From Octopus vulgaris (Eukaryota), in contig OX597831.1 of NCBI GenBank assembly GCA_951406725.2, forward strand, positions 52,824,001 to 52,888,000: DNA of 64,000 bases, in the 5' to 3' direction. Positions 29,601-32,600 of the stretch are shown one piece after another. Every line of letters begins with the position of its first letter. Positions within the stretch are counted from its first letter, which is position 1. The notes beneath the pieces were generated by a model. It did not search any database. It was given only the letters and a program-made list of their open reading frames with translations, and was not told where the DNA came from. The position numbers were made by a program, and so were the translations under genes.

Positions 29601-32600
29601 CCCCCCACACACACAAAAAAAAAAAAGCACCATCCGAACGTGGCCGATGCCAGACCCCTCTGGCACCTGTGCAGGTGACATGTAAAAAACACCCACTACA
29701 CTCACGGAGTGGTTGGCGTTAGGAAGGGCATCCAGCTGTAGAAACACTGCCAGACTAGACTGGAGCCTGGGGCAGTCCCTAGCTCCCCAGACCCCGGTCG
29801 AAACCGTCCAACCCGTGCTAGCACGGAAAACGAACGTTAAACGATGATGATGATGATATATATATATATATATATTTAAATAGATGAGTGTATTTTTACC
29901 TTGTTAACAATTAACACGGAAAAAATAAATAAATAGTTACCAGGGCAGCAAAAATCTCACAAAATCGTTTTTTTCACTTTCCTGAGGAGAAGATTGCATT
30001 GTTTATACCATTTATTCTTTTGAATAGTATCAGTGGAATTTTCGAAACATGTGTCGAAAGTAAAAATATTTGATTACACCTGCGTTAACTCCATTTTTTT
30101 ATTCATATATATATATATATATATATATATATATATATATATATATCATCATCATCATCATCATCATCATCGTTTAGCGTCCGTTTTCCATGCTAGCATG
30201 GGTTGGACGGTTCTACTGGGGTCTGTGAAGCCAGAAGGCTTCATCAGGCCCAGTCAAATCTGGCAGTGTTTCTACGGCTGGATGCCCTTCATGTATATAT
30301 ATATATATATATAAGTGAAATAAGCCTGTTGTATGTATGTGCGTATGTAAGTATGTATGTATGTATATGTGTGGTTGTGCATATCTGTACGCATACGTGT
30401 GTGTGTGTATGTATGTATAATAAAAACAGATGAACAGGTTATCTAGTACTGCAACAATTGTTTCATTAAGAGTCTTTACTCTTACATTATACTACCATCT
30501 GATGATATACAATAGAACACAAAATCACATAGCAATATAGAAATTTGACTCAGTGTCTCTAACTTACTCAGATTGTAGTTTGTTGTAATACACTCAAACA
30601 TATCATAAGGCAAAGCCTGTATTTCAATGTCAGTTTTCTTTCTATAGCCTGCTCTGCACTGACAAATGCCACTCACACATTGAAGATTTGGGTAGGTACA
30701 GCCATTCTCAATATTACACCTGTATCCAAGTGCTCTCTCTGCTCTTCCCCTACATGCTTTGTTCTCTGTGGCTTCCAGTCCATCACGGCAAACACATTGA
30801 CGAAACAAACAAACAGAGAATGTTGGGGGGCAATTGTCAGAAAAGTCACATTTCTCAAGGATGTTGGAAGCTGTTTGAAAAAATATTAAATTGTATAAGA
30901 GAAACGGAAAGAGATGGAGGAAGAAAACAGAGAGAGTAAAACAAAAACAGAGAAAGCAAATAGTATAACACAGACATGAGTATACAATTAATATGAACAC
31001 TATCCTATACGCTAAGTGAAAAATCCTGTTGTTATCATCTCTGTCCACTATGCTTCTTAGGTTTTAGTATACACCAGTCATTTGGTGATCTCTTGATCCT
31101 ATATAAATTTCTATAACTTGTACCTCTACCCTTGTTGATATATATATATATATATATATATATATATATATCATCATCATCATCATCATCATCATCGTTT
31201 AACGTCCGTTGTCCATGCTAGCATGGGTTGGACGGTTCGACCGGGGATCTGGGAAGCCAGAAGGCTGCACCAGGCTCCAGTCTTATCTGGCAGTGTTTCT
31301 ACAGCTGGATGCCCTTCCTAACGCCAACCACTCCGTGAGTGTAGTGGGTGCTTTTTACGTGCCACCTGCACAGGTGCCAGGCGAGGCTGGCAACGGCCAC
31401 GGTCGGATTGGTGTACTTTATGTGCCACCGGCACGGAAGCCAGACGAGGCGGAGCTGGCATCGGCCACGAGTCAGATAGTGCTTTTTACGCCACGAGTCG
31501 GATAGTGCTTTTTACGTACCACCAGACCAGGGATCCTGGCTGGTTCAATTCGATTTCGATTTCGATTTCACTTGCCCCAACATGTCTTCGCAAGCAAGGG
31601 GGCTGGCATGGGTGCCTGTCGTACGGTCAGATTGGTGTATTTTACGTGCCACCGGCACGGAAGCCAGTGGAGGCGGCGCTGGCATCGACCACGAGTCGGA
31701 TAGTGCTTTTTACATACCACCAGACCAGGGATCCTGGCTGGTTCAATTCGATTTCGCTTGGCCCAACCTGTCTTCGCAAGCAAGGGGGTTGGCATGGGTG
31801 CCTGTCGTACGGTCATATATATATATATATATATATATATACATTTATGTTTGGTATAGTTACAAACAATTTGTAGTGAAATACAAATCTGTCACTCTCA
31901 TGATCATTTCTGGGTTGATTTTGTTTTGCCTAGCTTTGAAGTATATTGCATTTTTAACAGAATATATCTTTAAAGGGATTTTTCTAAAAAAAGAAAACTG
32001 CAGCTTATATATATATATATATATATATATATACATATGCATACGTTCATATATACATACATACATATATATATATATATATATATATATATATATAAGC
32101 TGCAGTTTTCTTTTTTTAGAAAAATCCCTTTAAAGATATATTCTGTTAAAAATGCAATATACTTCAAAGCTATACATATGCATACGTTCATATATACATA
32201 CATACATATATATATATATATATATATATATATATATATATATATATATATATATATATATATATATATATATATATATATATATATATATATATATATA
32301 TATATATATATATATATATATATATATATATATATATGTATATATGTATGTAAGCATATGTATATATATATTGTGTGTGAGTAGTTGGGGTATATCCCAG
32401 CTCTTTCCTCTTGAAGCACGTCTGCTTATTTCATTATTACAATCCAATATTCAGTCTCAGTTGCTGCCGTATGTTAGTTCAAAATATATACTAAAATTGA
32501 GAATTATGGAAATATTATTTACAGAGTTATTGTATAACATAACAGGAAATTGGAAATTTCTTCATATTATTTATTCACCATTACAAATAATAATATTCAA

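What the first reader, a model, noticed from the sequence alone, without database searches (positions are those of the whole stretch)
29876..30105. 230-bp TA-flanked element carrying a canonical-core hammerhead
It has a 6-bp stem I (ACTTTC/GAAAGT, extendable), CUGAGGA, an extended stem II (GAAGATT-G-CATTG / CAGTG-G-AATTTTC), GAAAC-AUGU-GUC, and no coding capacity. It is bounded by (TA)n on both sides and sandwiched between two RTE tails that point toward it. This is the best candidate for an active ribozyme or retrozyme-like monomer in the window.
Basis: partly seen in the sequence, partly recalled or inferred. Interest (0 to 1): 0.7.

Follow-up and report, generated by a model that had tools for sequence, protein, structure and literature searches.

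The report
Two-armed Penelope retrotransposon stub with hammerhead
This is a short broken-off copy of a Penelope-like retrotransposon that carries the element's own hammerhead ribozyme motif (cutting untested), not a stand-alone ribozyme RNA; its two head-to-head arms end at two fixed sites of the parent element, a rule its relatives follow and a likely footprint of reverse transcription primed on both cut DNA strands.

Summary
The type I hammerhead motif is real: 1 descriptor hit in the window, 0 in 100 shuffles. The 230-bp unit is not a retrozyme monomer. It is a truncated insertion of an autonomous Penelope-like element (2.87-kb unit, 775-aa RT + GIY-YIG ORF, Hydra-like; at least 865 termini in this genome) in a (TA)n tract. 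It has two arms joined head to head. 29965-30105 is the pLTR end with the hammerhead and stops at site A. 29877-29962 is the inverted end of a 155-nt tail and stops at site B. The junction is unique in the genome, and no tandem monomer array was seen. The flanking RTE tails are separate insertions. Among longer copies picked by the endonuclease, 34 of 35 scorable inverted insertions pair an A end with a B end; simple fold-back cannot make 17 of 33. I infer paired target-primed reverse transcription from two RNA sites. The youngest subfamily carries a U4C core change, and the family lacks the cysteine linker proposed to guide (TA)n targeting. Cleavage was not tested; as a monomer it is predicted to be weak, and this copy lies antisense in a host intron.

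The parts
29877..29962 (-). Arm B: last 86 nt of the element's 155-nt 'tail', inverted; ends at site B, 52 nt upstream of the ORF start in full-length copies
   Evidence: 98-100% to the tail of L061, L059, L073, L070; position relative to ORF
29963..29964 (.). Head-to-head junction of the two arms, 1-2 nt that fit neither arm; unique in the genome
29965..30105 (+). Arm A: 3' part of the pLTR / 3' UTR, 5'-truncated, ending at site A (49 nt after the hammerhead cleavage site)
   Evidence: 99% to L059 and L061
29976..30061 (+). Type I hammerhead motif: 6-bp stem I, CUGAGGA, long stem II, GAAA, 2-bp stem III with self-complementary ACAUGUGU; predicted cut after C30055
29856..29875 (.). (TA)n target tract, left
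30105..30146 (.). (TA)n target tract, right
29622..29856 (+). RTE retrotransposon 3' tail ending in (GAT)n; separate insertion into the same TA tract
   Evidence: 82% to the 3' UTR behind the RVT_1 ORF of L038
30145..30290 (-). Second RTE 3' tail, opposite orientation; separate insertion
   Evidence: 83%
30482..31063 (-). Stop-to-stop frame holding the nearest identified exon of the host EB-module gene; the gene is on the minus strand, so the element appears intronic with the hammerhead antisense
   Evidence: Pfam EB E=7e-7; further EB frames at 13257-13730 and 16675-17085 on the same strand

Best explanation
The element is a short, doubly truncated insertion of an autonomous Penelope-like retrotransposon in a (TA)n tract, made of two head-to-head arms that were likely copied by reverse transcription primed on each cut target strand, one from site A and one from site B of the element RNA; the hammerhead is the parent's pLTR motif carried along and is predicted to be weak or silent here. 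SHOWN: parent family with RT and GIY-YIG ORF and the hammerhead in both pLTRs; two fixed termini 155 nt apart; A+B pairing; (TA)n targets; variable junctions, mostly with short shared sequence. INFERRED: the endonuclease cuts both strands of (TA)n; two RT active sites (a dimer, by analogy with the anole element PAc) start at A and B on RNA from one source locus; both stop early; the cDNA ends are joined by microhomology repair. INFERRED: in multimeric parent RNA the hammerhead may cleave as a dimer or with help from the element's protein, but it is not needed in canonical form for the family to spread.
For: Parent element: the C-terminal ORF piece upstream of arm A in L038 led to 150 scored matches, several with 778-codon open frames. 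L054 shows pLTR-tail-ORF-pLTR-tail, with both halves of the finding mapping to it. End rule: of 70 endonuclease-selected loci, 41 are inverted and 35 have both ends scorable: 34 A+B, 1 B+B, 0 A+A (P=1e-9 against a half share). The B+B case, L069, has mirrored flanks too; L068 repeats L055's junction; 33 independent A+B remain. Of 27 non-redundant loci picked by the B end alone, 16 are A+B, none B+B, 11 show one arm. Arm A is not contained in arm B in 17 of 33 and 12 of 16, and not in this copy, so one arm cannot be a fold-back copy of the other. In 13 of 16 insertions no other sampled copy is closer to an arm than its partner arm (8 strictly). 31 of 38 junctions share 1-11 nt by BLAST overlap. 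Termini run into (TA)n in 51 of 52 A ends and 51 of 53 true B ends (13 internal read-throughs removed by eye). PAc cuts and extends both strands, starts RT at two internal sites that bound the tail, is predicted to be a dimer, and inserts normally in vitro with a dead hammerhead (PMC11167929). Hammerhead dispensability: 506 exact core matches carry C4 against 418 with U4. C4/GUA copies are the youngest (0.95% from their group's commonest letters, n=47) and canonical U4/GUC copies the oldest (2.2%, n=14).
Against: No biochemistry. 29 of 70 and 11 of 27 loci show only one arm, so either one-ended insertion is common or short second arms were missed, and these could hide A+A or B+B cases. 20 of the 70 loci were hand-picked for long frames or paired hits (not for their ends). 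The simplest one-RNA model predicts that arm B stops at site A, and it mostly does not: 93 of 100 listed tails run through the 44 nt scanned. Strand displacement, two pLTRs of a multimeric RNA, or two RNAs are therefore needed. PAc showed no difference in start site between the two strands. Arm-to-arm likeness could also come from later gene conversion. The age order rests on a midpoint-rooted tree without an outgroup. U4C is reported to keep enough activity in a viroid in vivo (PMC3088659), so the young subfamily's ribozyme need not be dead.
Confidence: 0.8

Rival explanations
1. It is a non-autonomous retrozyme-like monomer that is copied as a 230-nt unit through circular RNA.
For: Type I hammerhead, no coding capacity, size in the retrozyme range, many look-alikes. 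A preprint argues that animal retrozymes derive from pLTRs (10.64898/2026.07.22.740005).
Against: Junction unique in the genome. 28 of 28 scored look-alikes differ in arm lengths. No head-to-tail copies of the unit in the 30 loci. Half of the unit is antisense to the hammerhead arm. Contigs of another DNA run show many further junction positions.
Confidence: 0.03
2. Same parent element, but the inverted structure arises by self-priming (fold-back) on one template, as proposed for rotifer Penelope elements, or by two successive independent insertions into one TA tract.
For: Self-priming on an antisense template is proposed in PMC3846280 (passages). 16 of 33 long insertions are compatible with fold-back.
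Against: 17 of 33, 12 of 16 and this copy have arm A outside arm B. Independent insertions would leave TA between the arms and give A+A and B+B pairs; junctions have none and pairs are 34 of 35 A+B.
Confidence: 0.12
3. Whatever its origin, this copy's hammerhead cleaves efficiently as a monomer and acts on a cellular transcript.
For: Fully canonical core; the hammerhead fold lies only 1.3 kcal/mol above the minimum in the 116-nt fragment.
Against: Stem III pairs with probability 0.03-0.04. In the whole 229-nt RNA stem I drops to 0.04 and the fold is 3.1 kcal/mol above the minimum. The motif is antisense to the host gene. No conservation beyond the repeat family and no covariation.
Confidence: 0.05

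Closest known systems
Hydra clade of Penelope-like elements (Craig et al. 2021, PMC8557442), including Hydra-1_Obim of Octopus bimaculoides
   Same: Unit under 3 kb, single ORF with C-terminal GIY-YIG, DKT motif, RW motif, no CCHH, CxxC and CxH around the conserved E and N, (TA)n target, type I hammerhead with palindromic stem III near the 3' end. By eye, the protein follows the printed Hydra alignment.
   Different: No CxCX5C linker (0 cysteines in 77 of 77 copies). RWL instead of RWK. A different N-terminus and a different hammerhead from Hydra-1_Obim. Stem II arm of 55 nt, against about 12-23 nt in the six novel Hydra rows seen. Tail of 155 nt, against the 30-40 bp given for PLEs.
PAc (Poseidon of Anolis carolinensis; Frangieh et al. 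2024, PMC11167929)
   Same: Two fixed termini that bound a tail, AT-rich targets, hammerhead in the pLTR region that seems dispensable for insertion.
   Different: Other clade. In PAc the start sites lie 111-118 nt into the ORF and the hammerhead overlaps the start codon; here both sites are upstream of the ATG. The parts read do not report A+B coupling or explain the inverted copies.
Metazoan minimal hammerheads of Penelope-like elements (Cervera and de la Pena 2014, PMC4209133)
   Same: Type I, pLTR location, long helix II, short palindromic helix III, many solo copies from truncated elements, pairs on opposite strands 100-700 bp apart.
   Different: Canonical 6-bp stem I and a much longer stem II here; U4C in the majority of exact matches.
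Non-LTR retrozymes of animals
   Same: Type I hammerhead, non-coding, similar length.
   Different: Not a tandem repeat, not a fixed monomer, half antisense, direct piece of an autonomous element.

Membership tests
Penelope-like element (EN+, C-terminal) | Single ORF with RT and C-terminal GIY-YIG endonuclease | tested here: met
   775-aa ORF with DISNFY, YRDD and IYQC...FYIG motifs read from the sequence. Pfam gave no hit, so the assignment rests on motifs and on likeness by eye to the published alignment.
Penelope-like element (EN+, C-terminal) | pLTRs from partial tandems, inverted 5'-truncated copy, optional tail | tested here: met
   the tail is 155 nt rather than 30-40
Penelope-like element (EN+, C-terminal) | Hammerhead in the pLTR | tested here: met
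   Motif in both pLTRs of L054 and L070
Hydra clade | DKT motif; no CCHH; CxxC and CxH around E and N; unit under 3 kb | tested here: met
   SDKTG, CLLC..E, N..RCKH, 2,867-bp unit against section 11 of PMC8557442
Hydra clade | RWK motif | tested here: inconclusive
   RIRWL: R and W kept, K replaced
Hydra clade | CxCX5C linker before the endonuclease | tested here: not met
   0 cysteines in 77 of 77 copies; present in 59 of 65 database homologues that have the endonuclease end. Filed as a Hydra-like variant, not a plain member.
Hydra clade | (TA)n insertion preference | tested here: met
   51 of 52 A ends, 51 of 53 true B ends
Hydra clade | Groups with Hydra in an RT phylogeny | not tested
   The named reference proteins were seen only as supplement text and could not be put in a tree
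Neptune / Nematis clades | CX2-5CxxC linker and CCHH motif in the endonuclease | tested here: not met
   Neither motif is present. My first guess of Neptune was dropped.
Non-LTR retrozyme | Tandem repeats of a fixed monomer, each with a hammerhead | tested here: not met
Non-LTR retrozyme | Abundant circular RNA | not testable with these tools
   Only assembled contigs were offered
Type I hammerhead ribozyme | Conserved core with three helices, open at stem I | tested here: met
   stem III only 2 bp as a monomer; the strand self-pairs at -6.0 kcal/mol as a dimer
Type I hammerhead ribozyme | Covariation in the stems | tested here: inconclusive
   0 of 20 pairs, but the copies are 94% identical
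Type I hammerhead ribozyme | Self-cleavage after H17 | not testable with these tools
   Needs a bench assay

The most novel reading that the evidence does not exclude
Penelope-like elements build their inverted copies by obligate asymmetric twin priming: a dimeric RT-endonuclease holds two different sites of its RNA, primes one on each strand of a cut (TA)n target, and the two cDNAs are joined end to end. The tail is simply the distance between the two sites. This octopus family shows the rule almost without exception, while doing without the cysteine linker thought to find (TA)n and without a canonical hammerhead core.
Probability: 0.55. Interest if true: 0.6.

Novelty: new variant of a known kind. 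Interest (0 to 1): 0.38.

Why it matters
The locus itself is an ordinary dead transposon stub, one of hundreds. Its family matters more. Craig et al. 2021 name the formation of tandem/inverted structures and the microsatellite bias as open questions for Penelope-like elements, and this young, high-copy family speaks to both. (1) The near-strict A+B pairing, with arms that are not nested in about half the cases, favours two-site priming over fold-back and gives an exact prediction for the existing in vitro system. (2) Strict (TA)n targeting without the linker cysteines argues that this motif is not required for target choice. (3) The youngest subfamily spread with a U4C core, which fits the in vitro result that hammerhead cleavage is not needed for insertion.

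Tried and rejected
Rfam: no hammerhead family hit. Pfam: no hit for the ORF or its C-terminal part. Neptune assignment: dropped after comparing motifs with the published alignments. 'Arm B stops where arm A starts': suggested by a few loci, not supported; 93 of 100 listed tails read through, and only about 3 stop at site A. Covariation: none, uninformative at 94% identity. RTE partnership: rejected (one degenerate tail beside L002 seen by eye). Expression: no RNA holder listed; all runs are assembled contigs and 'RNA' is only a guess. Laying eight run-contig sets listed no joint at the cleavage site and no intron-like GT..AG joint in the 5' region (the list was cut), which says nothing on circles, splicing or cleavage. 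Earlier findings near the locus: none on file. Lunse et al. on dimer cleavage is not held and was seen only as cited in a review. Searches for a prior description. None of the passages read names this family or quantifies the pairing. [quoted passage not shown]

Full report
Observation. A descriptor with the core and three stems finds only this site in the window and nothing in 100 shuffles. Stems I and II are stable in the 116-nt fragment; stem III is not (pair probability 0.03-0.04), and its strand ACAUGUGU is self-complementary. Rfam does not score the site, and the folding z-score is -1.36. The genome is 2.8 Gb in about 30 large contigs. I infer an octopus from this, from an Argonauta homologue and from a window fragment that resembles Hydra-1_Obim by eye.

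What it is. A search of the genome gave 2364 first-look candidates, of which 40 were scored. Copies share both ends but differ in the middle. Longer copies show why: bases 2-87 of the finding are the reverse complement of sequence that follows base 230 in the parent. Upstream of the hammerhead arm lies an ORF end, which led to full 778-codon frames. L054 reads pLTR, tail, ORF, pLTR, tail, (TA)n, with an inverted truncated copy in front. In L070 the predicted cut is 49 nt before site A, site B is 155 nt after A, and the ATG follows 52 nt later. The finding is therefore arm B (86 nt, inverted, from site B) joined to arm A (141 nt, up to site A). Its junction occurs once in the genome, and all 28 scored look-alikes have different arm lengths (these were picked by likeness to the query, so their A+B form is by construction). 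Exact-pattern counts give 865 B ends running into TA and 924 hammerhead cores; both are lower bounds. The flanking RTE tails are common in the window, also face each other with nothing between at 51850-51972, and gave no probe hit beside 29 other copies. The locus lies between exons of a minus-strand EB-module gene, so the host transcript would carry the hammerhead's complement.

Clade. The protein has DKT, RW, no CCHH, and CxxC / CxH around E and N, as listed for the Hydra clade (PMC8557442 section 11; alignment). It is not Hydra-1_Obim, whose N-terminus and hammerhead differ (supplement hits). It lacks the CxCX5C linker in 77 of 77 copies, whereas 59 of 65 homologues with the endonuclease end have it, yet 102 of 105 true termini run into (TA)n. 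The paper links that linker to (TA)n targeting; this family is a counter-example. No tree with named references was run.

How it likely forms. Of 70 loci picked through the endonuclease (11 by score after dropping one duplicate, 19 hand-picked for long frames or paired hits, 40 next in rank), 41 are inverted; 35 have both ends scorable: 34 A+B, 1 B+B, 0 A+A. The B+B case has mirrored flanks, and one A+B repeats another's junction; 33 independent cases remain. Of 27 non-redundant loci picked by the B end, 16 are A+B and 11 show one arm (three of those have a short A arm by eye). Fold-back needs arm A to lie inside arm B, which fails in 17 of 33 and 12 of 16. Partner arms are each other's nearest sampled relatives in 13 of 16 cases, and 31 of 38 junctions share 1-11 nt. 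PAc cuts and extends both strands and starts RT at two sites that bound the tail (PMC11167929, parts 1-2 of 4 and passages). I infer that both cut strands prime, one at A and one at B, and that the cDNA ends are joined by microhomology. Against the simplest form of this: arm B seldom stops at A, 29 of 70 loci show one arm only, and PAc showed no strand difference in start site. That the tail is often at one end only is already in print (PMC8557442 Fig. 2 legend; PMC3846280 passages). The counts and the test against fold-back are what I add; I did not find them in the passages read from searches, and the 2005-2006 papers and the PAc supplement were not seen.

The hammerhead. In 132 copies the variable core positions are N7, H17, the loop-3 palindrome, C11.1 (to a G-U pair) and U4 (C in 85 of 132). 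Genome-wide, C4 leads U4 by 506 to 418. The tree of 97 copies is a ladder from canonical U4/GUC (2.2% divergence, n=14) through C4/GUC (1.3%, n=15) to C4/GUA (0.95%, n=47); midpoint root, no outgroup. This copy belongs to the older canonical group. U4C lowers activity in vitro but is tolerated in a viroid (PMC3088659, passage). Metazoan PLE hammerheads cleave little as monomers (PMC4209133, parts 1-2 of 4; review passages PMC6765202). The retrozyme preprint was read in part 1 of 5 and PMC9977147 in passages. Expression could not be judged (see Tried and rejected).

Verdict. Real motif, wrong unit: a two-armed stub of an apparently undescribed Hydra-like Penelope family. The locus is ordinary; the family gives a clean, testable footprint of how these elements insert. 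New variant of a known kind, interest 0.38.

Noticed in passing
window 10143-10446: A second hammerhead-bearing family: one inverted and two tandem 83-bp units between TA-rich tracts. Relatives show the same two-terminus build with a tail of about 60 nt (A+B by eye in L145, L146, L150, L151; this copy looks A+A), and L150 carries a Hydra-type ORF start. 2683 first-look candidates; three matches 1.37 kb apart on C2:102.04 Mb.
   Followed up: partly
L147, about 1640-1780: Chimeric insertion: an inverted arm of the second family joined to an arm of a third family whose hammerhead-like core also reads CCGAUGA (U4C). U4C may recur, and arms of different families can be joined.
   Followed up: no
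window 46900-47370: Inverted pair of minimal hammerhead-like motifs (46942-46983 minus, 47267-47308 plus) with (TTA)n tracts; probably the pLTRs of another Penelope-like family.
   Followed up: no
window 58258-59258: Broken Penelope-like ORF pieces, 42% to this family's RT (E=5e-10), by eye close to Hydra-1_Obim.
   Followed up: partly
window 2336-33981, minus strand: Host gene with repeated cysteine-rich EB-module exons.
   Followed up: partly
window 51901-55089, minus strand: Long RTE element with endonuclease- and RT-like frames, tail to tail with a second RTE end at 51850-51900 across (TA)n.
   Followed up: partly
L070 2395-2579 (tail and 5' UTR): Several GTAA donor-like sites and a branch-point / TACAG acceptor-like site directly before CATATG suggest a 5' UTR intron as in other PLEs; no contig joint listed for it.
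   Followed up: partly
L055 and L068: Same insertion junction near two chromosome ends (probable segmental duplicate); the arms together span more than one tandem unit, pointing to multimeric or circular template RNA.
   Followed up: no
run X7, contig 25 on L070 2208-2469: A 227-nt contig of high depth with an inverted tail joined exactly at site A to a hammerhead arm; RNA status only guessed.
   Followed up: no
window 38987-39058: tRNA-like sequence above the Rfam cut-off, next to microsatellites; probably a SINE head.
   Followed up: no
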